DNA of 33,483 nucleotides from a bacterium (GCA_018672055.1 JABHGM010000001.1:573494-606976), one strand, 5' to 3'. Shown: positions 8,180 through 25,110, numbered from the stretch's first letter. The notes: a model not told the origin generated them from the letters alone. Numbers and translations are program-made.

Positions 8180-8839
8180 ATGAAGACATTCATTATAATT
8201 CCATGTCTTAATGAATCAGAAAATATTGTTAAAGTGATTAATTCTGTTAAAGAGTATGGTCAAGTAGTAATTGTTGATGATTGTTCAATAGATAATAGTT
8301 ATGAACTTGCTTTAAATCAAGGTATAGTTGTTTTAAAACATTACATTAATCGCGGACAAGGAGCATCTTTAGAAACAGGTGATAGATATGCTTTAAAACA
8401 TGGAGCTGACATTGTAATTCATTTTGATTCTGATGGTCAGCATAATAGTTTAGAGATTCCTAAATTGATTGAACCATTACTTTTAGGTAAAGTAGACATA
8501 GTACTTGGTTCTAGATTTTTAAACAGTACTGATAGTACACCGTTTATTAAAAAGTATTTTATTTTAAAACCAGCTATATTATTTCAAAATATATTACTTG
8601 GTTTAAATTTAACAGATACTCATAATGGTTTTAGAGCTTTAAATAGAAACGCTTTAAGTAAAATGCATATTAAACAAGATGGTATGGCTCATGCTACGGA
8701 AATAGTTAGTTTAATTAAAGAACATGATTTAAAATATGTTGAAGTTCCAGTAACTGTTAGTTATAATGAATTTGGGCAGGGCTTTATAGGTGGACTTCAA
8801 ATATTAAAAGATTTATTATTTAGTAAATTAAATAAATAG
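8180..8839 (+). CDS. GT2 polyprenol-phosphate sugar synthase (DPM1/GacI/PpgS-like)
   Basis: IIPCLNE, VDDCS, NRGQGA, FDSDGQH, GSRFL, DTHNGFRA; directly followed by a DUF2304-like gene. Confidence 0.88.
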   Translation: MKTFIIIPCLNESENIVKVINSVKEYGQVVIVDDCSIDNSYELALNQGIVVLKHYINRGQGASLETGDRYALKHGADIVIHFDSDGQHNSLEIPKLIEPLLLGKVDIVLGSRFLNSTDSTPFIKKYFILKPAILFQNILLGLNLTDTHNGFRALNRNALSKMHIKQDGMAHATEIVSLIKEHDLKYVEVPVTVSYNEFGQGFIGGLQILKDLLFSKLNK

Positions 8840-11380: not shown

Positions 11381-12544
11381 ATGAAATATTGTTTAATAAA
11401 TAATCTCTATCCACCTTTTTCAATAGGTGGTGCTGAAAATATAGTAGAAATAATTGCTAACTCTTTAAGTGTTAATGATCAAGTTTTAGTTATAACTTCA
11501 AGTAATAATGGAGATACAGAATTTAAAGAGATTCCTAATTTAAAAATAATACGTTTGCCCAGTAATAATATATATCACTATTTAGATAACAAGGATAAAA
11601 AAATATTTTTTAAATTAATTTGGCATATTAAAGATGTATTTAATTTTAAAACAGCGTCTTTAGTTAAAGATATTTTAAAACGTGAAATGCCTGATGTAGT
11701 TATGACACATAATTTAAAAGGCTTGTCATATGAAATACCTAAAGTAATACGTAAATTAAAATTAAAACATATTCATACCCTACATGATTATCAATTACTT
11801 GATCCTCATGGTTCATTACATAGAAAGGGAATTAATATTGAAAAATTACCTATTAGTTTAAGAGTATATAAAAATATATGTTCTAAACTGTTTAAGAATA
11901 TACCATATATCATATCTCCATCTAAGTTTGTTTTAGATAAGCATTTAGAAAATGGTTTCTTTAAAAAATCTAAAACATTTGTTTTACCAAATCCAATTGT
12001 TTTAACAGATAAAAAACATTTAAAAAAGAATAATGAAAAAATTAAATTACTTTATCTCGGACAAATAGAAGAACATAAAGGAATACAATTTTTACTTGAA
12101 TCATTTATTAAATATAATTCTGTAGATTTTGAATTACAAGTAGTAGGGGACGGTACACTTTTAAATGGGTTAAGCAAGAAATATGCTAGTGATCAAATTA
12201 AATTCTTAGGCAGAGTAGCTCATGAAGAAATAAATAATATATTTAATGATATTGATTTAACCATAATACCTTCAATCTGGTATGATAATTCACCTACTGT
12301 AATTTATGAAAGTTATGTGAATAATACACCTGTTTTAGTCTCAAATATTGGTGGCTCTAAAGAATTAGTAGAAGAGGGTAAAACTGGCTTTATTTACAAA
12401 TATAATCAATATAGTGATATGTGTGCTAAATTAGATAAAATAGCTCAAAATAGGGCAGATTTAGCTAAATATGGGGCAAATGGTTACGAATTCATTAAAC
12501 AATTTGAAGTATCTAAATATATAGATAAATTAAAGAATATATGA
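11381..12544 (+). CDS. GT4 glycosyltransferase
   Basis: YPPFSIGGAE, HTLHDY, SPS, EHKG, PSIWYDNSPTVIYE. Confidence 0.88.
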   Translation: MKYCLINNLYPPFSIGGAENIVEIIANSLSVNDQVLVITSSNNGDTEFKEIPNLKIIRLPSNNIYHYLDNKDKKIFFKLIWHIKDVFNFKTASLVKDILKREMPDVVMTHNLKGLSYEIPKVIRKLKLKHIHTLHDYQLLDPHGSLHRKGINIEKLPISLRVYKNICSKLFKNIPYIISPSKFVLDKHLENGFFKKSKTFVLPNPIVLTDKKHLKKNNEKIKLLYLGQIEEHKGIQFLLESFIKYNSVDFELQVVGDGTLLNGLSKKYASDQIKFLGRVAHEEINNIFNDIDLTIIPSIWYDNSPTVIYESYVNNTPVLVSNIGGSKELVEEGKTGFIYKYNQYSDMCAKLDKIAQNRADLAKYGANGYEFIKQFEVSKYIDKLKNI

Positions 12545-13413
12545 GTAGTTTTAGAGAGATAAAAAGTTATTTAAATACTAAGTGTAAGGTAAAAGATGAT
12601 ATATTTATTTATCTACCTACACTTACTGATTTCCAGAAAAAAGAGATAGAATTTCATGAAAATGACAGATCTAATGAAAAAGATGTACATCAATTAAATA
12701 GTTTAAGAAATCAGTATTATCATAAGTTATTTTCTAAATATTTTAATGCTTTAAAAAAAGAAAGCATAATTTTAGAAATAGGCGTTGGTATTGGTTACGA
12801 TTTAATACCTCTGCTTAAAAAAGGTTTTAAGGTAATAGCAACTGACATATCAGAAAGTACTTTAAAAGATTTAAAAAATTATATTAATACTAATTACTCT
12901 GAGTATAAAGAAAATATTATTTATTTAGTTTCTGATGGTCAGAATTTACCTCTTAAAGATAATTCCATTGAAGCTATTTTAATTGTAGCTACTCTGCATC
13001 ACTTTGAAGATCAAAATAAGCTAGTTACTGAATTAAAACGTGTTTTAGATAGTGGTTACTTAGTACTAGGCATGGAACCATCTAAATTCATGATGTCATT
13101 TACTAAACTATTTAAGAATTCAGATAAATTGAGAGTTCATAAAGGACATAGTGAAGCTGATGAAACTCATTTAGGGTATTTAAAAAGTGATTTTAAAAAG
13201 TTAGGTAAAGTTATACGTATTAAAAGAGTTTGGTTACTTCTTGGATTTTTGCATTATTTTTTAGAAGCTATATATAGATTATTTAAATTAAAAAAGAGGA
13301 TTAAAATTCCTCTTGTTATTGAATACATATTTTTAGTATTTGATGAAATATTACTTTCTATTCCAATAATAAACTCAATTAATTTTCATTGGTTAGTGGT
13401 TATTAAATTTTAA
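12541..13413 (+). CDS. class I SAM-dependent methyltransferase
   Basis: Motif I ILEIGVGIG, ATDIS, DGQNLPL.DNS, ATLHH, ELKRVL. Confidence 0.88.
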   Translation: MSSFREIKSYLNTKCKVKDDIFIYLPTLTDFQKKEIEFHENDRSNEKDVHQLNSLRNQYYHKLFSKYFNALKKESIILEIGVGIGYDLIPLLKKGFKVIATDISESTLKDLKNYINTNYSEYKENIIYLVSDGQNLPLKDNSIEAILIVATLHHFEDQNKLVTELKRVLDSGYLVLGMEPSKFMMSFTKLFKNSDKLRVHKGHSEADETHLGYLKSDFKKLGKVIRIKRVWLLLGFLHYFLEAIYRLFKLKKRIKIPLVIEYIFLVFDEILLSIPIINSINFHWLVVIKF

Positions 13414-13423
13414 ATATTACTTA

Positions 13424-13485
13424 AATAAAAAAGCCCGAGGTAAAACCAAGGGCTTTTGTAATATTTATTAAAATATTACTTATTT
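13424..13485. repeat. 62-bp block, copy 1 (identical to 15813-15874), containing the terminator and the stop codon of the cassette gene
   Basis: aataaaaaagcccgaggtaaaaccaagggcttttgtaatatttattaaaatattacttattt occurs exactly at both loci, offset 2389 bp. Confidence 0.95.
13427..13457. terminator. bidirectional intrinsic terminator between convergent genes
   Basis: aaaagccc-ga-ggt-aaa-acc-aa-gggctttt hairpin flanked by A and T tracts. Confidence 0.85.
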
Positions 13486-15606
13486 TACTAATACTATTTT
13501 TTGTAGTTCAGTAAAATTTCCAGCAATCATACTAACTAGGTAAATACCACTTGAAAAATCTGTGGCATTCCAGGTTATTTGATAATTACCAGATATTTGG
13601 TATTCATTGACTAATGAATATACTTCGCGTCCTGATATATCGTATACTATTATACTTACATCAGAATCATGAGGTAGATCATAGCCAATAGTTGTTATTG
13701 GATTGAATGGATTGGGATAGGCAGGAGATAGTTTGAATAAACTAGCTGTCTCAACTATATTTGTTGGAACTTTATTTCCAAGCCAATCAGCTACTATTGC
13801 TTTTTCAATTTTCATCTCACCGGAGTATTCGAAAACTATTTCATTTAATTCTGAACCATCCATACTAATCATGATAATCTCATTACCATTTTGTTTCATT
13901 ATCCAACCATTTGGATAGTTGGTAATAGTGAAATCGCCAGTTGTTAGTAGCTGTATGCCTGCAATATCTCCATCAACTTTGAGTGAGCCGTTGTTAAACA
14001 GGAGATTAATTAATTCAGGAGATGATCTTCCTACAGGTTCATCAATAATTATGAACAGTATTTGTACTGCATCTAAAACATTGATTTCATTATCTTCGTT
14101 CATATCACTAGCCCAGAACGTATATTCAGAACTGATTATTGTTTCAAGTGCTATACCAATTACTTGTACCAGATCCACTACATCAATTTCTTCATTGCCA
14201 TCAATGTCACCTTTCATGCCTACTTGGATAGAACCAGAATCAGCAACAGTCAGATTTAGTGGTTGTCCTTCAGAATTACTTACAGAATATTCACCAATGT
14301 AAAATTCAATATTACTTCCTGGAATAGCATCCTCATTGACATATCCCGTAATTATTAAATTTTCCAAGTAATATCCTACCCATTCACCATCCTCTTCAAT
14401 TACTTGATTAAATGGATTTTGAACTCCAATGAATTCATATGTACCACCAAAATCAGCAGCATATGAGAATTCAAATGAAGACTCATGTTGCCAGAATGTA
14501 ACTGCATTTGGGGAGTCGATTAGTTCGAATTGGATTCCAGGAAGAGGATAATCTGAAACAATATTGATAATCAATTCAGTGTGTTCATTTGGAATTGTAT
14601 AGCCATTAATAATAAACATACCTATATTCTCTTCTCCATCAGTTATGAAGATTTCAGGACCCACGGCTGGTAATTGATGCGTGTGAACTTCAAAACCATA
14701 CATACTATCTTTTAAGATGAAATTATCCTCTTCAATTGATATATGGATAATTTCATTTAGCTCAGCATCTGGATCAACGTCGGCTGCCAAATAGAAGAGG
14801 AAATTACTTTCACTTGGTAATCCATAGTTAGGTTCAATTATATAACCATTTTCAATAGTATTACCATAGAGAAAATTTACTTGATTTTCATAGTCATTGA
14901 GGCTATTATATAATCTAATATTTTGAAGGCTTTCAATACTAGAAATAGTAAAGTTAACAGCTTCAAAGTGAAGATTATTTTCCATTACATAACCTCCAAA
15001 TTCCCATAACAAGACATTTTGATCGCCAGGTTGAACAGAAATATCATTAAATTCATAACCGGAACTATTTATATAAGCATCACCGACTTCAGCATTGCCA
15101 ATAGAAATTACATTTCCTATTATCATTAAGTTATCATCTGGATTCATATCTTCATAGATTACTTCAAGTATTTCATTATGAGTATTTCTTGCAAATACTT
15201 CAGATATACCTAGGTAAAATGTGTCACCTGCAGATGGCATCGCAACATCAAGCGTAAATGTAAATGTATAATTGGTTTCTGAAAGATACAATCCCTCAAA
15301 AAGAGCTACATCATTATCAAAACTTGATAGCGAAGCAAATTCTGTCCTTTCAGGACCAAAGTTTTGCCATATGGTAATATCTGAATATTGAATAGATTCT
15401 GTTGACCCACTGATTGTAGCAGCAAATCCATCAAGTAATACGTTGTATTCAGAATCAATAACCATATCTACAATTAGTACGGGAGCGTTATTTGCTAGCC
15501 TTGCACAGGTATATGAACCTTGGTTATTTTCATTTAAAGAAAGCGTTAGTGTTTGAGCATGTCCGATGGACATTATTAACATAAGTGTAAAGACGATATT
15601 TTTCAT
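13480..15606 (-). CDS. secreted acidic protein: signal peptide, Ig-like domains, cohesin-like domain, dockerin, T9SS type A/FlgD-like C-terminal domain
   Basis: MKNIVFTLMLIMSIGHA signal peptide; GDIDGNEEIDVVD...DMNEDNEINVLD duplicated Ca loops; AYPNPFNP.TTI.Y...VYDISGREV...SGIYLV...KIVLVK tail; SD aaggag. Confidence 0.85.
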   Translation of the reverse strand: MKNIVFTLMLIMSIGHAQTLTLSLNENNQGSYTCARLANNAPVLIVDMVIDSEYNVLLDGFAATISGSTESIQYSDITIWQNFGPERTEFASLSSFDNDVALFEGLYLSETNYTFTFTLDVAMPSAGDTFYLGISEVFARNTHNEILEVIYEDMNPDDNLMIIGNVISIGNAEVGDAYINSSGYEFNDISVQPGDQNVLLWEFGGYVMENNLHFEAVNFTISSIESLQNIRLYNSLNDYENQVNFLYGNTIENGYIIEPNYGLPSESNFLFYLAADVDPDAELNEIIHISIEEDNFILKDSMYGFEVHTHQLPAVGPEIFITDGEENIGMFIINGYTIPNEHTELIINIVSDYPLPGIQFELIDSPNAVTFWQHESSFEFSYAADFGGTYEFIGVQNPFNQVIEEDGEWVGYYLENLIITGYVNEDAIPGSNIEFYIGEYSVSNSEGQPLNLTVADSGSIQVGMKGDIDGNEEIDVVDLVQVIGIALETIISSEYTFWASDMNEDNEINVLDAVQILFIIIDEPVGRSSPELINLLFNNGSLKVDGDIAGIQLLTTGDFTITNYPNGWIMKQNGNEIIMISMDGSELNEIVFEYSGEMKIEKAIVADWLGNKVPTNIVETASLFKLSPAYPNPFNPITTIGYDLPHDSDVSIIVYDISGREVYSLVNEYQISGNYQITWNATDFSSGIYLVSMIAGNFTELQKIVLVK

Positions 15607-15651
15607 CTTTTCTCCTTTTCTTGTTTATTTATTCTTTTATCAACGTTCGGT

Positions 15652-15781
15652 AACATAAATACTTAACCTTTTAAAAAAGGTATTGAATTATGTTCATTTT
15701 ATTAATTTTTTAGTGTTATTTTACTTAAATATATTGACGAATAACTTATATAAGTTATTACGTATATTATTAGTAAATAAC
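15652..15781 (-). ncRNA. candidate structured 5' leader RNA (two hairpins), copy 1
   Basis: Imperfect inverted repeats at 15715-15781 and 15652-15694, starting at the predicted TSS; conserved in copy 2. Confidence 0.45.
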
Positions 15782-15785
15782 GTAA

Positions 15786-15814
15786 AATATAGCAAAAATA
15801 GTATATTTTGTCAA
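15786..15814 (-). promoter_or_regulatory. sigma70 promoter of the 708-aa gene
   Basis: Minus strand TTGACA (15814-15809), 17-nt spacer ending TGc, TATATT (15791-15786). Confidence 0.8.
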
Positions 15815-15874
15815 TAAAAAAGCCCGAGGTAAAACCAAGGGCTTTTGTAATATTTATTAAAATATTACTTATTT
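15813..15874 (-). terminator. 62-bp block copy 2; intrinsic terminator of the 1234-aa gene
   Basis: Same GC hairpin; on the minus strand it is followed by TTTTTT, which abuts the next TTGACA. Confidence 0.85.
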
Positions 15875-18800
15875 CAGTAAAACTACTTTTTGAGTTTTGT
15901 TGAAATTTTCTGCTACCATCGAAACTAGGTAAACGCCAGATGGTAAATCATTGGCATTCCAAGTTATTTGATAGTTACCAGAATTTTTCTGTCCTTCGTA
16001 AAGAACAGTTATTTCTTTGCCATTCATATCATAGACTATGATTTGAATAATAGAATCATCTTTTACTGAATATTCAATCGTAGTTACTGGATTGAATGGA
16101 TTAGGGTAAGGAGCATTAAGTTTGAAGTTATTAGGAATAACTTCGTTAATTGGAATTTCATTTCCTGACCAATCAACAAGTAGAGCATCAACTATGTTTA
16201 GATTACCAGTATATTCAAATATTATATTTGGTAATTCTGAACCGTCAGCGCTTATTGCTAATATGGTATTTCCATTTTTTTCAAACATCCAACCATGAGG
16301 TAGGAAAATTTGATTAATTTGGAAATCTTCGGAAACTTTGAATTGAAATCCAGCAATGTCACCGTCTGCTTCAATCTTAAACTGATTATTATCTACTGAG
16401 ATTGTTGCCTGTGAAGGTAACGATCGTCCTAGATCAAGTTGCAGAATAGCATCAACCAGTAGAACTACATCAACTATATTAAGAGTTCCATCTTCATTCA
16501 TATCAGCAAGTAGGAGTTGATACTCTGTCGGTAAGTTGAATATCCAGCTTATTAATTGAACGATGTCTACGATATTAATCATGCCATCATTATTCAAATC
16601 ACCTCTGAGATCAGCACCACTACAACTGAGTATTCTAACTACATCAAGTTGATTTATGAGGTGGCCATTGAACCAGTCCATTGAACTGAGCCAACCATCA
16701 TCATTAGTGTCGGTATGAAAGTTATTACCATCAGTACCAGTCATGTCTGACCAAATCATATATGCACCAGTACCATCATTCTCACCATCAGAACTTAGAC
16801 AATATTGTCCAGGTCCTAGATCCATATCTTCACCTTCACAAGATGGTTCAAGATACATTGGTGGAAGATAATCGGTGTCACCATCATACATATATGTTGC
16901 GATTTGATCACAGCTACCAGCGCCTGTATTTACATTATCGGCTGCAGCCTTCAAAATGTAGTACTTTGAAGTCCCAGCAGGAATTAATCGATCATCATTG
17001 AAAACAAGGAATATATCATGAATACTTATTGATTCATCGTAGTAAAGATAATCAGTCAAAGCAGTAAGTTCAGTGCCTGGATAGTTTCCATGGAATATCT
17101 GATAACTGTCAGCTCCTGATGATCCTGCAATAAGCAGAGTAGCATCTTCATAACTATTTCCTTCATAGATTTGAAAGTTGCTTAGCCTTAATAAATTACC
17201 TGTTGGAATATCATCCAATAAGTTTAATTTAAAACCTTGCTTCTTATAACCTATGGAAGTATTAGCTTCTGCAGCTTCAACTCGCCAACGATACAGTTCT
17301 GCTGGACCGTTGAAAAAAATTGTGCTGGTTTCAGTATCAGGAGTGATAGTTGGAACATTACCATGAACAATCATATCATTACCATAAATATTCCAGTTAT
17401 TACTAGTAGCAGTAAAAATTGAACCAGATTCACCATGAGCTTCAAAGTTATCATCATAATCAAATTTAGCATTTATTACATCACCAGTATACGCTTCATA
17501 TGTTTGGTTGATAATTGGGACACTAAATGTAACTTCAACAATTCTTGAGCTATTAACAGGTATAAATAATGGATTTGATGTGATATCAAAGTCCATATTA
17601 CCAAATAGTTGAACTACCTCAGCAACAATTTCTTCACCAGCTTCATTTTGATACCTAATTGTTCCTAAATCAACTGATCGATTGAATAGATTACCATTGT
17701 CTTGTCTAATACGAAGCTTGTTAACATGAAATGACTCATTAGTAGCTTGGAAGTTTAGATTAAGCATAGGAACATCATAAGTACCAGCAATAATATTCGT
17801 AGTAACAGGTTGATCCCATCCAGTAACATTTAATGTGCCAGCATTAGTGATTTTTAATCGATATGAGTTATTGAATGAAGACGATGAACCATTGACATCA
17901 GTGATAGACCAAGAAGTGCCATCGTTATCAGTTAGAGTAACATTATTTCCATTCGAATCAACTATTATTAAATCATAAATAGTTGCAATATTAACCTTTA
18001 TATACTTATTACCTGGGAAGGTAATTGAGTATGCATTATGAGCGATATCACCAACAACTTTCATTATATGAGTTTCGTTAACAGGAATGATCATGTTCAT
18101 ATCGTTAAATGAAGCAGCGCCGGTAGTTGAACTAAAAGCCTCTATAGTTTCATTTAGGTTAGTGGTCATATTTGGGTCAACTGTAATATCATATAGTCTT
18201 AAGTTTGAAACCATGTCACTGATATATACATATTCACCATCACCAGTGCCTTGTCTTCTGACCATACAATTTATAGGATCTATACCAATATATCCATAGA
18301 GAGTAAGTGATGAAATGGTCATGTCAGAACCTGGTCCAGCATTAAAAGCAATTTCTCCAAGATTTATATTAGTAAGACCTTGAACAACGTTAACCTCTGC
18401 CGGGTTTGATGCTAATGCAACACCAAGTGATGAAGCTACTACCGTCATATGATTACCTTGGGTATAGGTTGATGGTGTGATATCTGTTATCCATTCATTA
18501 GTATCTGTATTTAACATCCCGTTTAAAGGACTGATTGAATATGGAGTTTCAGGTGATGTATACCATTGACCAGTAGATCCAAGTACAGAATAGTAACCAC
18601 CAACTGAATTATTCCCAAGATCCATAATGATAGCAAAGTTTCTGGTTTGACTTGTATAGAAATCAAATGAGTCTGTAAAATCGTAATATACACCATTATC
18701 ATCGTTGTTAATGTTCATAAAATCTGAGCAATCGACTGATGCAGTACTTTCGCCATTATCAGTGTCTACAATATGAATATTATAGATCCCTTCTGTACAT

Positions 18801-19573
18801 GATAACGAAGATGTATCAAGATCAGTGGACCATTCATGTAATTCAACTCGGAGGCTTTGAAGTTCTGAATTTGTTCCAGCAGTTATAGAGAATTCCATAA
18901 AGGTAACATCATTTGTACCATATCCATAAACATTTGGTTCAGGACCTAAGAATTCTACATAAACACTATTTTCACCAGATTCAGGTATTACCGCTAGATT
19001 AGCACCATATATGATTTCATCATTTGGCCATAGGTAAGTGACTTCAGGATTATAATCCCATTCTTCGGGAATGAAGAAGAATTGTCCTTCAGTACCACCT
19101 AGATTTTCAGTATAGATTCGTAAGCTAATTGAGTTAGCTTCATCAGGCATTAGATAGAAAGCTGTCTGTTCATTAAAGAACATAACTTGTGACCAACCAC
19201 TATCATCCGTCAAATGATACGAAGAAACCATTGGAGTAATCGGTTCACCATCATATCCAAGTATTTCTGCATAGAAACTACTTGAACCGATTGAACCATC
19301 AGCATAGAACTTCATATTTTGAATATATGTCTCGATATTGTTGTAGATATCTAAGCTGATTACAGTATAGGGCAATCCGGCAGGGATTTGCCCATCTTCA
19401 TGACTTTCGTAAAAAGCTACAACTCCTTCATCCCGAGTATTCAGTTCAGGTGTATTATTAACCAGTTCCATGATATCCAGATCTGGATTAACACTAGAAA
19501 CTAGGTTGTATTCGGTATCAATTCCAGCAAACATTACTGAAATAACGATCAATGGAATAAATAATGTTTTCAT
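15869..19573 (-). CDS. large secreted acidic protein: signal peptide, tandem Ig-like domains, dockerin, T9SS type A/FlgD-like C-terminal domain
   Basis: MKTLFIPLIVISVMFA signal peptide; repeated beta-rich units (SLGVALASNP..NVVQG, GTLNVTG..P...NIIAG); GDLNNDGMINIVD...DMNEDGTLNIVD; PYPNPFNP...SGVYLV...KVVLLK; SD aagggg. Confidence 0.85.
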   Translation of the reverse strand: MKTLFIPLIVISVMFAGIDTEYNLVSSVNPDLDIMELVNNTPELNTRDEGVVAFYESHEDGQIPAGLPYTVISLDIYNNIETYIQNMKFYADGSIGSSSFYAEILGYDGEPITPMVSSYHLTDDSGWSQVMFFNEQTAFYLMPDEANSISLRIYTENLGGTEGQFFFIPEEWDYNPEVTYLWPNDEIIYGANLAVIPESGENSVYVEFLGPEPNVYGYGTNDVTFMEFSITAGTNSELQSLRVELHEWSTDLDTSSLSCTEGIYNIHIVDTDNGESTASVDCSDFMNINNDDNGVYYDFTDSFDFYTSQTRNFAIIMDLGNNSVGGYYSVLGSTGQWYTSPETPYSISPLNGMLNTDTNEWITDITPSTYTQGNHMTVVASSLGVALASNPAEVNVVQGLTNINLGEIAFNAGPGSDMTISSLTLYGYIGIDPINCMVRRQGTGDGEYVYISDMVSNLRLYDITVDPNMTTNLNETIEAFSSTTGAASFNDMNMIIPVNETHIMKVVGDIAHNAYSITFPGNKYIKVNIATIYDLIIVDSNGNNVTLTDNDGTSWSITDVNGSSSSFNNSYRLKITNAGTLNVTGWDQPVTTNIIAGTYDVPMLNLNFQATNESFHVNKLRIRQDNGNLFNRSVDLGTIRYQNEAGEEIVAEVVQLFGNMDFDITSNPLFIPVNSSRIVEVTFSVPIINQTYEAYTGDVINAKFDYDDNFEAHGESGSIFTATSNNWNIYGNDMIVHGNVPTITPDTETSTIFFNGPAELYRWRVEAAEANTSIGYKKQGFKLNLLDDIPTGNLLRLSNFQIYEGNSYEDATLLIAGSSGADSYQIFHGNYPGTELTALTDYLYYDESISIHDIFLVFNDDRLIPAGTSKYYILKAAADNVNTGAGSCDQIATYMYDGDTDYLPPMYLEPSCEGEDMDLGPGQYCLSSDGENDGTGAYMIWSDMTGTDGNNFHTDTNDDGWLSSMDWFNGHLINQLDVVRILSCSGADLRGDLNNDGMINIVDIVQLISWIFNLPTEYQLLLADMNEDGTLNIVDVVLLVDAILQLDLGRSLPSQATISVDNNQFKIEADGDIAGFQFKVSEDFQINQIFLPHGWMFEKNGNTILAISADGSELPNIIFEYTGNLNIVDALLVDWSGNEIPINEVIPNNFKLNAPYPNPFNPVTTIEYSVKDDSIIQIIVYDMNGKEITVLYEGQKNSGNYQITWNANDLPSGVYLVSMVAENFNKTQKVVLLK

Positions 19574-19619
19574 TTATTTCCCCTTTATTTGTTTACTTAT
19601 TCATTTTTCAACGTTCGGT

Positions 19620-19748
19620 AACATAAATACTTAACCTTTTAAAAAAGGTATAGAATTATGTTCTTTTTTTAATTATTTATTGTTATTTTACTTAAATATA
19701 TAGACGTATAACCTATATAAGTTATTACGTATATTATTAGTAAATAAC
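19620..19748 (-). ncRNA. candidate structured 5' leader RNA, copy 2
   Basis: Hairpins at 19682-19748 and 19620-19662. Confidence 0.45.
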
Positions 19749-19753
19749 ATAGA

Positions 19754-19782
19754 AATATAGCAGAAATAGCTTATTTTGTCAA
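19754..19782 (-). promoter_or_regulatory. sigma70 promoter of the 1234-aa gene
   Basis: Minus strand TTGACA (19782-19777), 17-nt spacer ending TGc, TATATT (19759-19754). Confidence 0.8.
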
Positions 19783-19814
19783 TAATAAAACTAACTTTTA
19801 CTATAAGTTAGTTT
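19783..19814 (-). terminator. probable terminator of the 696-aa gene
   Basis: aaactaactt / aagttagttt inverted repeat (19788-19797, 19805-19814) with a T-rich tail on the minus strand. Confidence 0.6.
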
Positions 19815-19825
19815 ATAATATATAT

Positions 19826-21916
19826 TTAATTAACGTATTCAAATATATAGTTTTTACCATCAATAGCATACCAGTAATCAGCACTTTGCTTATGTTCTAA
19901 GATCCTGTCTTTAGCATCAAACCAATAATCATTTATTACTAAGTAAATAGTATTAACATCAGTTAAATATCTAGCAGTAGCAATAACATCTACTGTTTTT
20001 TCTTTAGCATAGGCTAAGTCTTCATATAATTCATATAATCTGTTGCCTGTAGGTACTGGGTAAAAGTAGAAATCATTATGATAATATTTATAACTAAGCT
20101 CAGAAATTGCAGAAGCAGAAACTGGTTGAGCAGCTAGAACTATGTATGGTCTACCTTGATTTAAGTTTTCTAAAAAGTTAACTGTTTTAATATCAGTAAC
20201 AGATGTTGAAAAACCATGATCCTCACTTATCTTATCAATTCTTGGATATGAAAGATAAAAAGAGGTGGTAAAGGCTAAAGAAATTAAAATAGTGGAGAGA
20301 AGAATAAAAGTGGAACTTTGTTTTAATAGTTTATTAATTAATAAATAGAAAGCTAAAATGATGAGAGGCAGTAAAAAGTAAAGACTCATTTCTAAAACTC
20401 GAATAGGATAATTTTGTTGTTCGTGAGATAGCAAACTAAAAAATGAAATACCTGTAACTAGTATTAAATAATTAGCTAGCATGATTAAAGTCATAACTGG
20501 ATAAATACTAAAACGTTTAAATCTTTTTTTAGTAATTAAAAATATTACAGTAATAGCTATTAAAAATACTAAGAATGCTATTATGTTATACCCATAGTTA
20601 TATATTAAATCATAAATTGAAATAAAAGGACGATAGAATAATGAGTAATCTTGATTACTTAAAACAGTAGCTAAGTTTTGAGTCCAATTACTATTTAAAC
20701 CAACTTTCATTTCTGATAGTGTTTGGGAGTTAATAAAAAAGGCAAAAGGCAAGGCAAAAAAAGAAACAACTACTATTTCCCAGAATATACTTTTACTTAA
20801 AAGTTTAGGCAGAGTAAGTCTAGATCTATGATATATAAATAGTAAAACAATAAAAATAATACAGGGTATACCAGCTAAAGGATGAATAGCTAGAGTCATG
20901 AGCGATAGTAGAGCAAGTGGCCAAATAGCAACCTTAGGATGAGATATAAAGTAAATACCTAAAAATATAGTAATTAGTAGAAATACATTAGCTAAAGCTT
21001 GAGGTGTAGTAACAATAAAATTAGTAAATGGTATAGCTAGAAGTAAAAAGATAATTAGTAAAATGGTTTTTTCTTTTATTTTAAAATTATTTTTAAGAGC
21101 ATAGTAAATAGTAAGTGGTATATAAACAGCAGACATAAGTGGTACTAGTATCTTATCTATATTAATAACTGAAAAGTTAAATAATTTATGTAAGTATATT
21201 ATTAAACTATATTGCCCAATGTAATAAAATGGCTTAGGTAGCAGAGTACCTGATTCCAAAATTAATTTAAGATTAGCTCTATGTATAAAAGGATCATAAT
21301 CAAAACCTACTTGGTAAGTAATAACAGCAATAATAGAACTAATAAAAAAATGTAATATTATTAAAGTTAAGTAATTACCTTTTTTATTAAATATTAATAA
21401 GTTAAGTAAAATAAAAGAAGCAATAAAGTAAATAAAGAATATTTGACTAGGTATTACTTCCCATGGAGATCTAATACTAAGTCCAGTTCTAGAATTAAAA
21501 ACTAAAAATGTAATTATTGATAATAGTATTAAATAGATTAAAACAAGAATTAATTTTTTTAAATTAAACTTAGTTTTTATTTTCTCTGGAAAATCAATTA
21601 ATAGAGGATACTTAATAATTATTGGTAAATAAAGTAATGGAATAATTAGTAAGTTGAATAAAAAAGTTAAATCATTTAATTTAAATAAATAAAAACAAAC
21701 AGTATTAATTAAACTAGCAATTACCAGAGTAAATAATATGCCAAAGAATATTTTACATGGATAAGAATTTTTTATAAATAGATAATTACCCAGTATTAAA
21801 GAAATATATATTAAATATAAAAGCCCAATAAGTAATTTAAAAGGGAATACTATAATTAAAACAATTAGTATTAACGAGATTAGTAAATGTTTCTGCCAAT
21901 TAATTAAATAAGTCAT
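19826..21916 (-). CDS. polytopic membrane protein, putative GT-C-fold glycosyltransferase
   Basis: Many TM segments, loop motif GFDYDPFIH, HPL motif, soluble C-terminal domain. Confidence 0.6.
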   Translation of the reverse strand: MTYLINWQKHLLISLILIVLIIVFPFKLLIGLLYLIYISLILGNYLFIKNSYPCKIFFGILFTLVIASLINTVCFYLFKLNDLTFLFNLLIIPLLYLPIIIKYPLLIDFPEKIKTKFNLKKLILVLIYLILLSIITFLVFNSRTGLSIRSPWEVIPSQIFFIYFIASFILLNLLIFNKKGNYLTLIILHFFISSIIAVITYQVGFDYDPFIHRANLKLILESGTLLPKPFYYIGQYSLIIYLHKLFNFSVINIDKILVPLMSAVYIPLTIYYALKNNFKIKEKTILLIIFLLLAIPFTNFIVTTPQALANVFLLITIFLGIYFISHPKVAIWPLALLSLMTLAIHPLAGIPCIIFIVLLFIYHRSRLTLPKLLSKSIFWEIVVVSFFALPFAFFINSQTLSEMKVGLNSNWTQNLATVLSNQDYSLFYRPFISIYDLIYNYGYNIIAFLVFLIAITVIFLITKKRFKRFSIYPVMTLIMLANYLILVTGISFFSLLSHEQQNYPIRVLEMSLYFLLPLIILAFYLLINKLLKQSSTFILLSTILISLAFTTSFYLSYPRIDKISEDHGFSTSVTDIKTVNFLENLNQGRPYIVLAAQPVSASAISELSYKYYHNDFYFYPVPTGNRLYELYEDLAYAKEKTVDVIATARYLTDVNTIYLVINDYWFDAKDRILEHKQSADYWYAIDGKNYIFEYVN

Positions 21917-21997
21917 AGTATAATTTTAACATAATTTATCAATTAAATCAGTACTTATCTAAAACTAAAAGATTTGATATAATATATAAGTAAATTT
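21917..21997. promoter_or_regulatory. divergent promoter region with extended -10 elements
   Basis: Plus: TGaTATAAT (21975-21983), 14 nt before ATG 21998. Minus: TGtTAAAAT (21931-21923), 6 nt before ATG 21916. Confidence 0.55.
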
Positions 21998-23617
21998 ATG
22001 AATAGAATATTTAGAAAGTTTAATAAGAAACTTGTAATTTTAATGTTATTTGGAATAGCTTTTTTTATTATTTATTCATTCTATGGTAATAATGCATTTA
22101 ATGTAGATTCTAGTATTAAAATATATAATTCACCTGATGCTACTGCTAATTATACGTTTAGTAAAGTTTTTTACGAAAGTAATGAGTTAAGTTTTAAAGA
22201 TGATGTTAATTCTGTAGCAGGTAAATTAGTTAGTCCTCGTAGTATGAGAGTTATTGATGGCTTAACAGTGCCTGCTAGTTTTATGGGTATGCCTCTATTT
22301 TATGGCTTACTTAGTAAAGCATTTGGTTTAAATTTAATTAATTACTTTACTCCACTTATTGCAGTATTAGGAGTTTTTATATTTTATTTCTTAATTAAAT
22401 TGTTATTTGATAAAAAAATAGCTTTTTGGTCTGCTATATTTTTATTTATTAATCCTGCTTTTTGGTTCTACTCCTCAAAGAGTATGATGCCTAATATATT
22501 ATTTATTACACTTTTCTTATTTACGTTATATTATTCTGTACTCTCAATAAAAAAGAAAAAGATATATTATTATTTATTAGGTGCTATATTTTTAGCTTTA
22601 ACTTTAATGGTTAGGACTTCAGCTATAGTATGGATATTACCTATCTTTTTTATACTTGGCATATTTAATTTTCAAAGACTTAAATGGAAATACATTATAT
22701 TATCACTACTTGTCTTTTTAATTACGTTTTCACCAATACTATATTTTAATTTAGAAAATTATGGTCATGTTTTAAGTATAGGTTATGAATTTGGCCTAGA
22801 GTTAGATGATGATAGTCTATTAAATAATAGTATTTCTTTAGTACAAAGTATATTTTTGCCATTTAGTTTTCATCCAAAAACAGCTCTATTTAATACATTT
22901 GATTATACTTTTAGGTTATTTCCTATTTGGTCTATTATTTCTTTGATTGGTTTACTCATTTTTAGTTTTAAAGCTATTACTCGTAAAAAGTATGATGAAT
23001 TAATGTATCTTTTTATATTTTCAGCAATTGGAGGATATTTAATGATATATTATGGTTCATGGAGATTTCATGATAATCCTAATCCTGATTTAATTACTAT
23101 TGGGACTTCGTATGTAAGGTACTTTTTACCTATATATATCTTTTTAATTCCTATGGTAATACATAGTATTAGTAATTTATATAAAAGGCAGAAATATATT
23201 TTACCTGTTGTCTCTGTTGTTTTATTTATAATACTCAGTTGGCAAAGTTATCAAGTAGTTGTTTTAAGTGAAGGTGATGGCTTAAAAGATGTTAGTAACA
23301 CCTTGTCAGGTTATCAAGTATTAGCTCAAGAAGTTAATAATTTAACTCCTGATAATTCTATTATAATAGCTGATCGTTTAGATAAAGTATTTTTTCCTTC
23401 AAGAAGTGTAATATTTAAATTAAATAATGATCGGGATTATAATGCAGTTTATGATTTAATTGATGCTGGATATCCTGTATATTATTTTTACTTTACTAGA
23501 TCTGATGAATTACTAAATGAATTTAATAATAAATATTTTACTAAATTTAATTTGAAAGTAGGGGAGAGTATTAAAGACTTTGAAGAACAAAGTTTATATC
23601 CAGTAAATAAATTATGA
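21998..23617 (+). CDS. GT-C membrane glycosyltransferase (ArnT/PMT_2, GT39-like)
   Basis: Acidic first-loop motif NSPDATANY, many TMs, NPAFWFYS, LMVR, YVRYFLP. Confidence 0.75.
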   Translation: MNRIFRKFNKKLVILMLFGIAFFIIYSFYGNNAFNVDSSIKIYNSPDATANYTFSKVFYESNELSFKDDVNSVAGKLVSPRSMRVIDGLTVPASFMGMPLFYGLLSKAFGLNLINYFTPLIAVLGVFIFYFLIKLLFDKKIAFWSAIFLFINPAFWFYSSKSMMPNILFITLFLFTLYYSVLSIKKKKIYYYLLGAIFLALTLMVRTSAIVWILPIFFILGIFNFQRLKWKYIILSLLVFLITFSPILYFNLENYGHVLSIGYEFGLELDDDSLLNNSISLVQSIFLPFSFHPKTALFNTFDYTFRLFPIWSIISLIGLLIFSFKAITRKKYDELMYLFIFSAIGGYLMIYYGSWRFHDNPNPDLITIGTSYVRYFLPIYIFLIPMVIHSISNLYKRQKYILPVVSVVLFIILSWQSYQVVVLSEGDGLKDVSNTLSGYQVLAQEVNNLTPDNSIIIADRLDKVFFPSRSVIFKLNNDRDYNAVYDLIDAGYPVYYFYFTRSDELLNEFNNKYFTKFNLKVGESIKDFEEQSLYPVNKL

Positions 23618-25110
23618 AAAGATTAGTAAATAATTTATATAGTTTTTTTAAAATAATTATAATTATTATTCCTTTTATATTACTAGCTTTTTTAATAAAT
23701 AAAGATTTAGTAAGAAGTGGTACTATTTCATTTGTATATGATTTTTCTCAAGATTCACCTGTTATTACCAATCTATTTCCAGCTAATCGTATGAGTGATG
23801 TAAATAAGGTTAAAGATTTTGATATTTATTGGCAGAGTATAAATAATGAACCTGTTTATTTTGAAACTAGATTACCTCAAACCTTTGATAAAGCAGAAGT
23901 AGAAGTTATGTATCAAAATAATGATTTACCTTTAATTCAAATTGGTTTAAATAATATGGGTAGTAATGAATGGAATTATGATTTTAAACCATTAGAGAAT
24001 AAGTTACTTGATAATTTAGATTGGTTTAAGCTTGAAAGTAGTGATAAAGCTTTATATCAAAGAAAAAAACAATATCTTTCAATAGATCAGTTTTTAGAAG
24101 AAAAAGATACTTTAACTAACTTTGCTGCATATAATTATGATATTGATCGTAAATTTACAATTCCAAATTATTTAGCTAGTGATGATTACAAAGTAATGGA
24201 TAAAACATTGAGAGGAACTCATAGTTTTTATACTTATATTAAAGATGAAGCTTTAGATTTTGTATTTACTATTCAAGATATAAATAGAGCAGAAGGTTTA
24301 GATGAACTTAAAATTAAATTATATAATGATCAAGGTATTTTAATTTATGAAAAAAAAGTTGATGATGATGGTTTAATAAGCAAATATGATCCAGCTTCTG
24401 CATCACGTAATATTAATTTTTATTTTGAAGGTCTAGCTGAAGGCGCATATAAGATAGTACTAGACTGCGCGGATGAAATATTTTTTAGGGAAATTAAAAC
24501 AAAACAAAAATATTTAACTTTTATTGATCGATTATACTTAGTTGATAATCCTAGTTATTCAGATGGTTTTATAGATTTAGAATACAAACCTACAGCTATC
24601 TATAGTACTATACCTAGACTTGGCTTCTATACTTCACATAAAGAAGGCAAACAGCTCATTGGGATAAATAATGAAGTTATTGAAATAGACGAAACTCATA
24701 AAAATTATTATCTAACACCAAGTAGCATGCCGGTATATATGTTTATACCTAAAAATGATATTAAAGTATTTGGTCAGGGTTTAATGAGTTTATCTGATGA
24801 TATGTATTTTAATCCAGAGATATATAATTTAAGGAATATAACTGATTTTTCAAATATTGATTATTTAATTACTGATTATATTAAACCTACCTTAGTAAAT
24901 GGTTGGCAGACAGGTAAAGTAAGTTTTGATTTAAATAATGCATCAGTTATTAACCGTAAATTACGTTTTGCAATTTCTGCGCCTGAACTTAATAGTTTAA
25001 ATGAAGAAATACCTGTTTTACAAATCAAAGTTACTTTAACAAAAGAACCACTTAGTTTAAGTGAGTTTTGGGATAAAACATTTAGTTATATTAAAAAGAA
25101 ATTAAAATGA
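23614..25110 (+). CDS. hypothetical membrane-anchored extracytoplasmic protein
   Basis: 498-aa ORF, single N-terminal TM, beta-rich; ATGA overlap with the upstream gene. Confidence 0.8.
   Translation: MKRLVNNLYSFFKIIIIIIPFILLAFLINKDLVRSGTISFVYDFSQDSPVITNLFPANRMSDVNKVKDFDIYWQSINNEPVYFETRLPQTFDKAEVEVMYQNNDLPLIQIGLNNMGSNEWNYDFKPLENKLLDNLDWFKLESSDKALYQRKKQYLSIDQFLEEKDTLTNFAAYNYDIDRKFTIPNYLASDDYKVMDKTLRGTHSFYTYIKDEALDFVFTIQDINRAEGLDELKIKLYNDQGILIYEKKVDDDGLISKYDPASASRNINFYFEGLAEGAYKIVLDCADEIFFREIKTKQKYLTFIDRLYLVDNPSYSDGFIDLEYKPTAIYSTIPRLGFYTSHKEGKQLIGINNEVIEIDETHKNYYLTPSSMPVYMFIPKNDIKVFGQGLMSLSDDMYFNPEIYNLRNITDFSNIDYLITDYIKPTLVNGWQTGKVSFDLNNASVINRKLRFAISAPELNSLNEEIPVLQIKVTLTKEPLSLSEFWDKTFSYIKKKLK

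What the first reader, a model, noticed from the sequence alone, without database searches (positions are those of the whole stretch)
13424..19782. Tandem self-contained expression cassettes: conserved promoter-leader and terminator around variable surface-protein genes
Seen: each minus-strand gene is preceded by a ~210-bp homologous block (15607-15814 and 19574-19782, including 44 identical bp). Each is followed by an identical 62-bp block (13424-13485 and 15813-15874). Exact identity ends one codon into the coding sequence. The shared C-terminal ~240 aa are clearly diverged and the N-terminal regions do not align by eye, so the non-coding flanks are better conserved than the genes, the reverse of ordinary duplicate decay. 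The pair splits a glycan locus. Inference: a modular cassette array (promoter-leader / variable passenger / constant tail / terminator) maintained by gene conversion or recombination, possibly a surface-variation system.
Basis: partly seen in the sequence, partly recalled or inferred. Interest (0 to 1): 0.85.

Follow-up and report, generated by a model that had tools for sequence, protein, structure and literature searches.

The report
Twin surface-protein genes with matched flanks
Two neighbouring genes for very different cell-surface proteins in a tiny marine bacterium carry almost identical on-switches and stop signals, most likely because the two copies keep correcting each other, and this is a two-gene curiosity rather than a large switching system.

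Summary
The upstream block (15607-15814 / 19574-19782) is ~91% identical and the 62-bp downstream block (13424-13485 / 15813-15874) is identical. The encoded proteins share only 45% identity over their last 249 aa, nothing before that, and synonymous sites are saturated. Each block occurs exactly twice in the 946,732-bp genome, and metagenome unitigs show the 62-mer at 2x depth with no variants.

Each unit is a complete transcription unit: a near-consensus sigma-70 promoter, a ~175-nt leader, a gene, and a two-hairpin terminator. The proteins have a signal peptide, a variable passenger, a dockerin, a cohesin-like sandwich and a T9SS-type C-terminal domain. The host is a marine Patescibacterium with no Omp85 gene.

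The 6.4-kb pair is a lineage-specific insertion. In 6 of 9 family relatives the methyltransferase and the 696-aa gene are directly adjacent.

A third paralogue with the same tail divergence has unrelated flanks. An orthologous terminator is already unalignable in the nearest relative. Tandem pairs in other genera show the same pattern with different leader sequences. I therefore favour concerted evolution (gene conversion) of the flanks. I found no support for a multi-cassette surface-variation system. Interest is moderate.

The parts
13414..19825 (-). Whole inserted segment (6,412 bp) between the stop codons of the methyltransferase gene and the 696-aa membrane-protein gene
   Evidence: In 6 of 9 family relatives the two flanking genes are directly adjacent and convergent. 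In the nearest relative (G005) their stop codons overlap. GC is 0.30-0.37 here versus 0.20-0.28 around it.
13424..13485 (-). Terminator block, copy 1 (last codon and stop of p1, AT-rich hairpin, G+C hairpin, T-run). On the + strand it can also terminate the methyltransferase gene.
   Evidence: 100% identical to 15813-15874. The fold gives -22.6 kcal/mol, z -5.2, with 0 of 200 shuffles as stable.
13480..15606 (-). p1, 708 aa: signal-peptide-like N-terminus, orphan passenger (1-460), dockerin, cohesin-like sandwich, T9SS type A-like C-terminal domain
   Evidence: Pfam and NCBIfam hits to Por_Secre_tail and Dockerin_1 over cut-off. The passenger has no Pfam hit, no homologue in 10 family genomes, and only itself in the 5.8-billion-protein search. 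RNA contigs lie on it.
15607..15814 (-). Promoter-leader block, copy 1: TTGACA-17-TATATT with TG, predicted start near 15779, ~173-nt leader, ribosome-binding site
   Evidence: It is one of the two best promoter matches in 13300-22100 (11 of 12). It is ~91% identical to copy 2. The leader fold has z -2.2. An RNA contig at 15442-15739 runs from the CDS 133 nt into the leader.
15813..15874 (-). Terminator block, copy 2 (p2), abutting the p1 promoter
   Evidence: It forms a separate 62-nt unitig with depth 44 and 36.2, versus 17-22 for unique parts, in two DNA runs.
15869..19573 (-). p2, 1,234 aa: signal-peptide-like N-terminus, passenger of a Patescibacteria-wide family of unknown function, then the same dockerin / cohesin-like / CTD tail
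   Evidence: The passenger is 52% identical to a tail-less paralogue at genome 762055-764439 and has homologues in 8 of 10 family genomes. The tail model has pLDDT 84. RNA contigs lie on it.
19574..19782 (-). Promoter-leader block, copy 2 (p2)
   Evidence: The leader fold has z -1.6.
19783..19825 (-). Short spacer with a hairpin plus T-run that can terminate the 696-aa gene
   Evidence: Read directly from the sequence. Not tested further.
12541..13413 (+). Class I SAM methyltransferase gene, left border of the insertion
   Evidence: Pfam Methyltransf_11/25. Orthologues lie next to the 696-aa gene in relatives.
19826..21916 (-). 696-aa polytopic membrane protein gene (no family hit), right border of the insertion
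   Evidence: No Pfam or NCBIfam hit. Orthologues were found in 9 of 10 family genomes at 51-83% identity.

Best explanation
Two adjacent, separately transcribed paralogous genes encode secreted surface proteins of a marine Patescibacterium with a ~0.95-Mb, 29% G+C genome and no outer membrane. Each gene sits in its own expression unit. That unit has a near-consensus sigma-70 promoter, a ~175-nt moderately structured leader, the gene, and a double-hairpin intrinsic terminator. This is the layout known for abundant envelope and S-layer proteins. The pair is a lineage-specific 6.4-kb insertion at the 3'-3' junction of a conserved glycosylation locus. The coding regions are old and deeply diverged: the passengers are unrelated, the tails are 45% identical, and dS is saturated. 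The promoter-leader and terminator blocks have been kept nearly identical by concerted evolution. By that I mean RecA-dependent gene conversion or unequal exchange between the two tandem copies, confined to the flanks because only there is enough identity left. The terminator seems to have been converted more recently than the promoter-leader. Shown: the anatomy, the copy number, the insertion, the divergence contrast, stability in metagenomes, and presence in RNA libraries. Inferred: the conversion mechanism, the promoter, leader and terminator functions, and the surface location.
For: 1. Flank versus coding contrast. The 5' block is ~9% diverged and the 3' block 0%. Tail dS is 1.36 overall and 1.88 in the dockerin plus middle part.

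2. Adjacency matters, not age. The tail of the unlinked paralogue g156 is as close to p1 (43%) and p2 (43%) as they are to each other (44%), with similar dS. Yet its leader and terminator do not align with theirs.

3. Non-coding DNA decays fast in this lineage. Against the nearest relative G005, coding DNA is 77-82% identical, but the orthologous terminator of g49 is not alignable.

4. Unequal flank divergence. There are 19 differences in ~213 nt against 0 in 62 nt. By my own arithmetic 0.91^62 is about 0.003. This points to separate homogenisation events rather than one duplication.

5. The pattern recurs. Self-BLAST of 14 loci with neighbouring CTD genes from relatives found flank repeats in 4 (L180, L181, L182, L191). 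In pairwise tests of 6 pairs, G002 has proteins 42% identical over 180 aa only, but a 134-nt upstream block at 89.6% and a 33-nt terminator block at 94%. G065 has proteins at 29% and an upstream block of 112 nt at 84%. G015 has proteins at 32% and 34 nt upstream at 100%. The leader sequences differ between genera. That is the signature of concerted evolution within a genome.

6. The machinery and substrate exist. RecA is present, and identical runs of 44 and 62 nt are available.

7. A 7-nt microhomology (TTTTATT) lies at the 5' edge of the promoter block and the 3' edge of the terminator block. This fits an original tandem duplication of one promoter-to-terminator unit.
Against: Only one genome of this genus is available, so no conversion event was observed directly. 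Homology ends close to the start and stop codons. Random conversion tracts would not obviously respect those boundaries, unless selection removes tracts that enter the coding regions. A 32-nt piece of the p2 leader is 94% identical to a piece upstream of the distant, unlinked paralogue g931. This suggests that at least part of the leader is under functional constraint. The promoter core (TATTGACAAAATA) is a genome-wide consensus, so its identity needs no conversion. Nine of the 14 relatives' loci showed no repeated flanks at E <= 1e-6.
Confidence: 0.55

Rival explanations
1. Cassette exchange. The promoter-leader and terminator blocks serve as homology anchors. A recent tandem duplication of one unit was followed by replacement of one coding region by a very divergent allele or foreign gene carrying the same flanks. 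The flanks are young and the genes old.
For: Homology stops near the start and stop codons. The p1 passenger is an orphan. CTD genes are GC3 outliers: p1 at the 96th and p2 at the 98th percentile of 378 ORFs. Housekeeping genes sit at the 6th-66th percentile. The whole block is an insertion. The tail module occurs on six different passengers in this genome.
Against: No other gene in the genome carries these flanks. No other context of the blocks was seen in the two DNA runs, where the 62-mer sits at about 2x depth and not more. Exact-pattern scans found nothing: a 29-mer of the leader in metagenome contigs, and a 31-mer of the terminator in metagenome contigs and viral contigs. The two flank types differ in divergence (9% versus 0%), which one recent event does not explain.
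Confidence: 0.17
2. Purifying selection alone. The leader is a functional RNA or protein-binding region and the terminator a precise element. Both are so constrained that they stayed nearly identical since an old duplication.
For: The promoter part matches a genome-wide consensus. An 18-mer of the p2 leader recurs exactly upstream of g931. By my own estimate the chance expectation is about 0.001 per genome. Leader folds are somewhat more stable than shuffles (z -2.2 and -1.6). The terminator fold is strong (z -5.2).
Against: The terminator is identical in its loops and spacers too, where a terminator tolerates change. The equally old paralogue g156 keeps only the architecture and not the sequence. 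There is no Rfam match. The leader was not found in 40 relatives beyond the promoter core. G000 and G002 leaders share no common structure. An orthologous terminator is lost at about 80% coding identity.
Confidence: 0.12
3. Programmed surface variation. Recombination between the direct repeats expands, contracts or switches the cassettes to vary the cell surface.
For: Direct repeats of 44-62 identical nt flank each gene. RecA could therefore delete or duplicate a unit. The proteins look surface-exposed and variable.
Against: There are only two units and both have their own promoter. No recombinase was found among the window ORFs scanned, and the only tyrosine recombinase lies ~71 kb away. In two DNA runs the p1 body, the p2 body and the outer flanks have similar depth (21.9, 19.1, 18.7 and 17.6 in one run; 20.2, 16.9, 19.4 and 17.9 in the other). 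No variant letters were seen, and there was one weak joint only (side 21, one contig, one run). Fourteen DNA runs hold 0.99 of the sampled words. Contigs cannot exclude rare variants.
Confidence: 0.05
4. Assembly artefact: a collapsed or chimeric repeat.
For: Short-read graphs break at these repeats.
Against: Unitigs from two runs of different studies cover every junction. These are the methyltransferase gene into the terminator, the terminator into the promoter at 15752-15842, and the promoter into the 696-aa gene. There are zero differences, and the shared 62-mer is at 2x depth. Either run may be the assembly's own source. The two promoter-leader copies differ at ~19 positions, so they are not one collapsed copy.
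Confidence: 0.01

Closest known systems
Tannerella forsythia S-layer glycoproteins TfsA/TfsB. The adjacent genes, T9SS C-terminal domains and O-glycosylation are recalled from memory. PMC4175972 was seen only as a search listing with the start of its abstract: T9SS mutants lack the S-layer.
   Same: Two neighbouring genes for large surface proteins that end in a T9SS type A C-terminal domain, associated with protein or glycan glycosylation genes. In the fold comparison, the tail's last domain aligns with T9SS CTDs and with an S-layer protein.
   Different: Here the host has no Omp85 and no PorV, and SprA was not found (control silent). The domain therefore cannot work as a T9SS signal. The genes are separate transcription units with duplicated flanks. 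The passengers are unrelated to TfsA/TfsB. No S-layer role is shown.
Mycoplasma variable surface lipoprotein families (vsp, vlp, vpma/vsa) with highly conserved 5' regions (recalled, no call)
   Same: Neighbouring surface-protein genes whose 5' non-coding regions are much more alike than their coding bodies.
   Different: Those families have many members. They share the signal peptide as well. They switch by promoter slippage or by a dedicated site-specific recombinase acting in the conserved 5' region. Here there are two members and different signal peptides. Each has a full promoter, there is no nearby recombinase, and no population heterogeneity was seen.
Concerted evolution of duplicated bacterial genes by RecA-dependent gene conversion (for example tufA/tufB, rRNA operons; recalled, no call)
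   Same: Within-genome copies stay nearly identical while orthologues between lineages diverge. RecA is present.
   Different: In the textbook cases the coding or functional RNA sequence is homogenised. Here only the regulatory flanks are, while the coding regions are saturated.
Long stabilising 5' leaders of abundant envelope or S-layer genes (ompA, slpA and the like; recalled, no call)
   Same: A strong promoter, a leader of 130-180 nt beginning with hairpins, and an efficient terminator. The usual leaders in this genome are about 27-80 nt.
   Different: No sequence or Rfam relationship. Stabilisation is not tested.
Cellulosome-type dockerin-cohesin modules
   Same: Dockerin_1 hits over cut-off in both proteins. 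The following beta-sandwich aligns with cohesins (4fl4_I Z 8.6, rmsd 2.5, 94 aligned; 3l8q_D Z 7.7).
   Different: No Cohesin Pfam hit. Both modules are on the same polypeptide. There is no scaffoldin and there are no glycoside hydrolases. No binding is shown.

Membership tests
T9SS type A cargo protein | C-terminal type A sorting domain (TIGR04183 / PF18962) over the curated cut-off | tested here: met
   p1 scores 40.8 and 42.4 bits, p2 43.2 and 42.7 bits, against cut-offs of 23 and 27. The fold of residues 169-255 of the tail model aligns with the PorU, mirolase and PorZ CTDs at Z 8.3-9.9.
T9SS type A cargo protein | N-terminal Sec signal peptide | tested here: inconclusive
   The translations begin with a basic residue followed by a hydrophobic stretch. 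No signal-peptide predictor was available.
T9SS type A cargo protein | Host has an outer membrane and the T9SS translocon and shuttle (SprA/Sov, PorV) | tested here: not met
   No Omp85/BamA in the 96.6%-complete single-contig genome, while the control rang in 7 diderms. No PorV (the control rang once, below cut-off). No SprA (control silent, so weak). No Peptidase_C25 (control silent).
Multigene surface-variation system (phase or antigenic variation cassettes) | Several (three or more) expressed or silent cassettes sharing the conserved flank | tested here: not met
   Each block occurs exactly twice in the genome. The 62-mer is at about 2x depth in two runs.
Multigene surface-variation system (phase or antigenic variation cassettes) | Dedicated recombinase or a slippage tract at the locus | tested here: not met
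   No recombinase family was found among the 28 window ORFs scanned. Three small or partial ORFs were not scanned. The one Phage_integrase hit in the genome is ~71 kb away.
Multigene surface-variation system (phase or antigenic variation cassettes) | Structural heterogeneity of the locus within populations | tested here: inconclusive
   There were no variant letters and no well-supported joints in 2 DNA runs. These are contigs, which drop rare variants.
Sigma-70 promoter plus intrinsic terminator (self-contained transcription unit) | -35 and -10 hexamers with 17-nt spacing; G+C hairpin followed by a T-run | tested here: met
   The promoters score 11 of 12 with a TG extension and are the two best in 8.8 kb. 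The terminator fold has z -5.2. Activity is not tested.
Known cis-regulatory RNA family (riboswitch, leader) | Match to an Rfam covariance model | tested here: not met
   0 matches at E <= 1 over 13300-19900.
Dockerin-cohesin pair | Dockerin type I repeats | tested here: met
   PF00404 scores 24.2 and 30.4 bits against a cut-off of 22.9.
Dockerin-cohesin pair | Cohesin domain | tested here: inconclusive
   No Pfam Cohesin hit. There is structural likeness to cohesins at Z 7.7-8.6, a range the tool itself calls middling.

The most novel reading that the evidence does not exclude
In this order of outer-membrane-less Patescibacteria, the T9SS-type C-terminal domain has been repurposed as the constant anchor of a modular surface-display system. 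It often occurs with a dockerin and a cohesin-like module. Standardised promoter-leader and terminator blocks act both as matched expression signals and as recombination anchors, and through them new passenger genes are captured, duplicated and exchanged. The p1/p2 pair and the similar pairs in G002, G065 and G015 would be snapshots of that process.
Probability: 0.12. Interest if true: 0.75.

Novelty: new variant of a known kind. Interest (0 to 1): 0.4.

Why it matters
The case is unusually clean: in a tandem gene pair the regulatory DNA evolves in concert while the coding DNA does not. That is the reverse of ordinary duplicate decay, and it recurs in related genomes. It shows that recombination still shapes gene regulation in a streamlined ~1-Mb genome.

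The side result may matter more. T9SS-type sorting domains are common in an order of bacteria that has no outer membrane (55 of 86 genomes). Here they are expressed in the sea. These ultra-small, probably host-attached cells may therefore use this domain for something other than type IX secretion. That would bear directly on how Patescibacteria build their surface and contact hosts.

Tried and rejected
- **Rfam.** A scan of the locus at E <= 1 gave nothing.
- **Shared leader structure.** Aligning the G000 and G002 leaders gave a consensus energy of -0.58 kcal/mol, so no common RNA was found.
- **Upstream ORF in the leader.** The ORF starting MLPNV is 17 codons in p1 and 7 in p2, and it is not conserved in G002. 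I rejected it as a conserved leader peptide (read).
- **A 'TTGA[AC]A'-type motif in leaders of CTD genes.** It occurs in 54-60% of 35 leaders against 15-22% of 65 control upstream regions. The control set was small and filtered by my own crude ribosome-binding-site rule, so this is only a lead.
- **Close relatives of p2 in genome contigs.** None were found.
- **Exact-pattern scans.** A 29-mer of the leader in metagenome contigs gave 0 hits. A 31-mer of the terminator in viral contigs and metagenome contigs gave 0 hits.
- **Complex prediction.** I tested the p1 dockerin against the p2 cohesin-like domain. The verdict was 'no answer' (0.10 against a mark of 0.32). It is evidence neither for nor against binding.
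- **ESM Atlas.** The p1 passenger gave weak leads only (best 0.84, below the 0.9 lead level). The p2 passenger resembles unnamed clusters, mostly from candidate-phyla bacteria (0.92-0.93).
- **RNA contigs.** They lie on both genes, but contigs cannot give starts, ends, strand or level. The absence of RNA contigs over 15740-15951 is not evidence.
- **High depth at 13521-13741 and 15952-16172.** It comes from contigs of other organisms that match the conserved CTD-coding stretch, and it is not copy number.
- **The joint 15485 to 19835.** It appears in one run, in one contig, with side 21. I set it aside as unreliable.
- **Expression bias as the cause of high GC3 in CTD genes.** Rejected, because EF-Tu, GroEL, DnaK, RpoB/C and EF-G are not elevated.
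- **Literature.** Three searches listed no paper with T9SS-type domains of Patescibacteria in its title or abstract. I judged this from listings only.

Full report
**1. The observation**

The window is G000:C1:573494-606976 of a single-contig genome of 946,732 bp (29.4% G+C, 96.6% complete). Two minus-strand ORFs are involved: p1 (13480-15606, 708 aa) and p2 (15869-19573, 1,234 aa).

- The upstream blocks 15607-15814 and 19574-19782 align at about 91% over ~213 nt with one 44-nt identical run. In a search of the whole genome the second copy scores E 2.1e-79.
- The downstream blocks 13424-13485 and 15813-15874 are identical over 62 nt (E 7.4e-27). The identity starts at the last sense codon and ends with the T-run.
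- The proteins align only over their last 249 residues (113 identities, 45%). The passengers do not align.
- A self-BLAST of the genome finds only 64 repeat pairs. These two are among the most similar ones longer than 150 nt.

**2. Anatomy of one unit**

- **Promoter.** Each upstream block begins with TTGACA, a 17-nt spacer with TG, and TATATT. These are the two best promoter matches in 13300-22100 (11 of 12). The extended -35 (TATTGACAAAATA) is a genome-wide consensus found before dozens of unrelated genes, mostly 27-80 nt from the start codon.
- **Leader.** Here the predicted leader is about 173-174 nt. It folds somewhat better than shuffles (z -2.2 and -1.6). It matches no Rfam family.
- **Terminator.** The downstream block is the stop codon, an AT-rich hairpin, a G+C hairpin and a T-run (-22.6 kcal/mol, z -5.2). 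The terminator of p2 abuts the promoter of p1.

The locus therefore reads promoter-leader / p2 / terminator / promoter-leader / p1 / terminator. The same 7-nt string (TTTTATT) lies at the outer edge of the promoter block and at the end of the terminator block. This is what a tandem duplication of one promoter-to-terminator unit by microhomology would leave.

**3. The proteins**

Both proteins have a signal-peptide-like N-terminus (by eye), a Dockerin_1 hit, and a T9SS type A sorting domain over the curated cut-offs.

An AlphaFold2 model of the p2 tail (255 aa, 19-row alignment, pLDDT 84) shows three modules:
- a helical dockerin;
- a beta-sandwich (75-168) that aligns with cohesins (4fl4_I Z 8.6, 3l8q_D Z 7.7);
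- a last domain (169-255) that aligns with T9SS C-terminal domains (PorU 6za2 Z 9.9, mirolase 8qb1 Z 9.3, PorZ 5m11 Z 8.3) and with an S-layer protein (7ptp Z 10.0).

These Z values are middling by the tool's own note. No Cohesin Pfam hit exists.

The p1 passenger (1-460) is an orphan. It has no Pfam hit, no homologue in 10 family genomes, and only itself in the 5.8-billion-protein search (word-based, so distant relatives can be missed).

The p2 passenger belongs to a family of unknown function. It is present in 8 of 10 family genomes and as two tail-less paralogues in this genome.

Six genes in the genome carry the CTD.

**4. The organism**

The closest RpoB sequences (63-72% identity) come from MAGs labelled Magasanikbacteria, Patescibacteria or Parcubacteria. 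Two of these closest MAGs (72% and 67%) are labelled Gammaproteobacteria and one (63%) Bdellovibrionales; I take these labels to be mislabels. All 40 relatives sampled have genomes of about 1 Mb.

The genome has no Omp85/BamA, and the control rang in 7 diderms. It has no PorV. No SprA was found, but the control was silent. There is no Pfam sortase.

So this is a cell without an outer membrane, in which a T9SS domain cannot act as a T9SS signal. Yet TIGR04183 hits occur in 55 of 86 genomes of the order, 53 of them over the cut-off.

**5. Insertion**

Orthologues of the 696-aa membrane protein were found in 9 of 10 family genomes.

- In 6 of those 9 (G005, G004, G003, G009, G007, G010) the methyltransferase orthologue is directly adjacent and convergent.
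- In G008 a 374-nt gap with a 142-aa ORF intervenes.
- In G002 a 221-aa ORF intervenes.
- In G001 the methyltransferase is not in the fetched locus.

In the nearest relative G005 (neighbouring proteins 72-83% identical) the two stop codons overlap. The segment 13414-19825 is therefore a lineage-specific insertion into a conserved sugar-nucleotide and glycosyltransferase locus.

The segment is richer in G+C than its surroundings. CTD genes as a class are GC3 outliers, while highly expressed housekeeping genes are not.

**6. Copy number and stability**

Each block occurs twice and only twice in the genome.

Fourteen DNA runs from marine or seawater metagenomes hold 0.99 of the sampled words. Six RNA runs hold 0.06-0.28.

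I laid two DNA runs of different studies and two RNA runs, all as Logan contigs.
- The DNA unitigs break exactly at the repeats and cover every junction with zero differences.
- The shared 62-mer is its own unitig at depth 44 and 36.2, against 17-22 for unique parts.
- The p1 body, the p2 body and the outer flanks have similar depth.
- Only one weak joint was listed.
- RNA contigs lie on both genes. One runs from the p1 coding region 133 nt into the leader.

Either DNA run may be the source of the assembly. Contigs drop rare variants, so rare rearrangements are not excluded.

**7. Why the flanks are alike**

Synonymous divergence of the shared tail is saturated: dS is 1.36 overall and 1.88 in the dockerin and middle part. 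The whole unit cannot be a recent duplicate.

The tail of the unlinked paralogue g156 is as close to p1 and p2 (43% each) as they are to each other (44%). Its leader and terminator share only architecture and short motifs with theirs.

Between G000 and G005, coding DNA is 77-82% identical, but the terminator of the orthologous CTD gene g49 cannot be aligned. Ordinary constraint therefore does not preserve terminators here, let alone their loops.

The two flank types differ in divergence, with 19 differences in ~213 nt against 0 in 62. By my arithmetic P is about 0.003 if both evolved at 9%. This speaks for separate homogenisation events.

The pattern recurs in relatives.
- Of 14 loci with neighbouring CTD genes fetched from relatives, 4 have repeated flank blocks at E <= 1e-6 (L180, L181, L182, L191). 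A fifth locus (L192) has a repeat in coding sequence only, and 9 have none.
- In pairwise comparisons of 6 pairs, G002 shows proteins 42% identical over 180 aa, with a 134-nt upstream block at 89.6% and a 33-nt terminator block at 94%.
- G065 shows proteins at 29% and 112 nt upstream at 84%. G015 shows proteins at 32% and 34 nt at 100%.
- G020 has short or weaker blocks, and G019 has none.
- The G002 leader is unrelated to the G000 leader beyond the promoter consensus, and the two share no common fold.

Copies alike within a genome but different between genomes are the signature of concerted evolution. RecA is present. I therefore favour gene conversion or unequal exchange restricted to the flanks (confidence 0.55).

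**8. What speaks against this, and the rivals**

Homology ends near the start and stop codons, which conversion alone does not predict. A cassette-exchange history fits that boundary: a recent duplication, with one coding region then replaced through the flanks. It also fits the orphan passenger and the odd composition. But no third context of the flanks was found anywhere.

Part of the leader is probably constrained. The promoter is a general consensus. A 32-nt piece of the p2 leader is 94% identical to a piece upstream of g931, a paralogue 340 kb away with only 29% tail identity.

A programmed variation system is unlikely. There are two units, each with its own promoter. There is no recombinase in the window. 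The single tyrosine recombinase lies ~71 kb away. No heterogeneity was seen.

**9. Comparison with what is known**

By function the units resemble the expression signals of abundant envelope or S-layer proteins: a strong promoter, a long hairpin-rich leader and a strong terminator (recalled knowledge).

By gene arrangement and domain type, the nearest analogue I know is the TfsA/TfsB S-layer pair of Tannerella forsythia (recalled; PMC4175972 was seen as a listing only). That system depends on a T9SS, which is absent here.

Mycoplasma variable-lipoprotein families share conserved 5' regions, but they are larger and are driven by recombinases or slippage (recalled).

A Cell 2023 paper on Saccharibacteria mentions an essential envelope protein with a dockerin domain (PMC10633639, one passage read).

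Three literature searches listed no paper with T9SS-type domains in Patescibacteria in its title or abstract. I judged this from listings only.

**10. Verdict**

The finding is real and neatly documented. It is a two-copy tandem pair with homogenised regulatory flanks, not a cassette array or a demonstrated variation system. It is a new variant of a known kind of process (concerted evolution of tandem paralogues), and of moderate interest (0.4).

The broader lead may be worth more than the flanks themselves. T9SS-type domains with dockerin and cohesin-like modules occur on variable passengers across an order of bacteria without an outer membrane, and they are expressed in the sea.

Noticed in passing
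outside the window: G000:C1:277200-285800 (locus L073): At least seven copies (two of them partial) of a conserved ~50-110-nt non-coding element. Each is followed by one of two terminator-like hairpins. Some lie directly upstream of small secreted-protein genes, and some stand alone behind a promoter-like site. It looks like a multi-copy small RNA or leader. There was no Rfam match at E <= 1.
   Followed up: partly
order-wide (86 genomes) and G000 genome: T9SS type A sorting domains are found in 55 of 86 genomes of this Patescibacteria order (53 over cut-off). G000 lacks Omp85, PorV and SprA hits. Absence of the machinery was not checked in the other genomes.
   Followed up: partly
G000 genome: 156653-158182, 771072-773861, 931540-935061, 49130-50767, plus p1 and p2: The CTD genes are GC3 outliers (92nd-99th percentile of 378 ORFs, except g771 at the 78th). 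Housekeeping genes are at the 6th-66th percentile. This suggests a different history, such as transfer, rather than expression bias.
   Followed up: partly
window 19585-19602 and G000:C1:931499-931516: An exact 18-mer, within a 32-nt stretch 94% identical, is shared by the p2 leader and the region upstream of the distant paralogue g931. It occurs nowhere else in the genome.
   Followed up: partly
G000 genome-wide: An extended -35 consensus (TATTGACAAAATA, one mismatch or none) precedes dozens of unrelated genes. Similar matches appear in relatives of other families.
   Followed up: partly
L181 (G065:C30) about 4330-4440, 6320-6430, 8257-8340; L170 (G063:C6): A conserved block just upstream of the -35 box recurs three times within 8.5 kb in G065, once before a non-CTD gene. 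A similar form occurs in G063. It may be an UP element or an activator site.
   Followed up: no
G000:C1:762052-766107 and 357299-360352: Two large paralogues of the p2 passenger lack the dockerin/CTD tail. They end exactly where the tail begins in p2, which shows the tail is a shuffled module.
   Followed up: partly
G000:C1:935225-937243: A 672-aa ORF next to g931 ends in a dockerin-like repeat and is also a GC3 outlier. It was not scanned against Pfam.
   Followed up: no
window 13521-13741 and 15952-16172: Contigs of other, more G+C-rich and more abundant marine organisms match the CTD-coding stretch at 90% or more over short lengths. This inflates depth there.
   Followed up: no
window 23614-25110 and 19826-21916: Two large ORFs of the glycan locus (498 aa and 696 aa) have no Pfam or NCBIfam hit. 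The 696-aa one is conserved in 9 of 10 family genomes.
   Followed up: no
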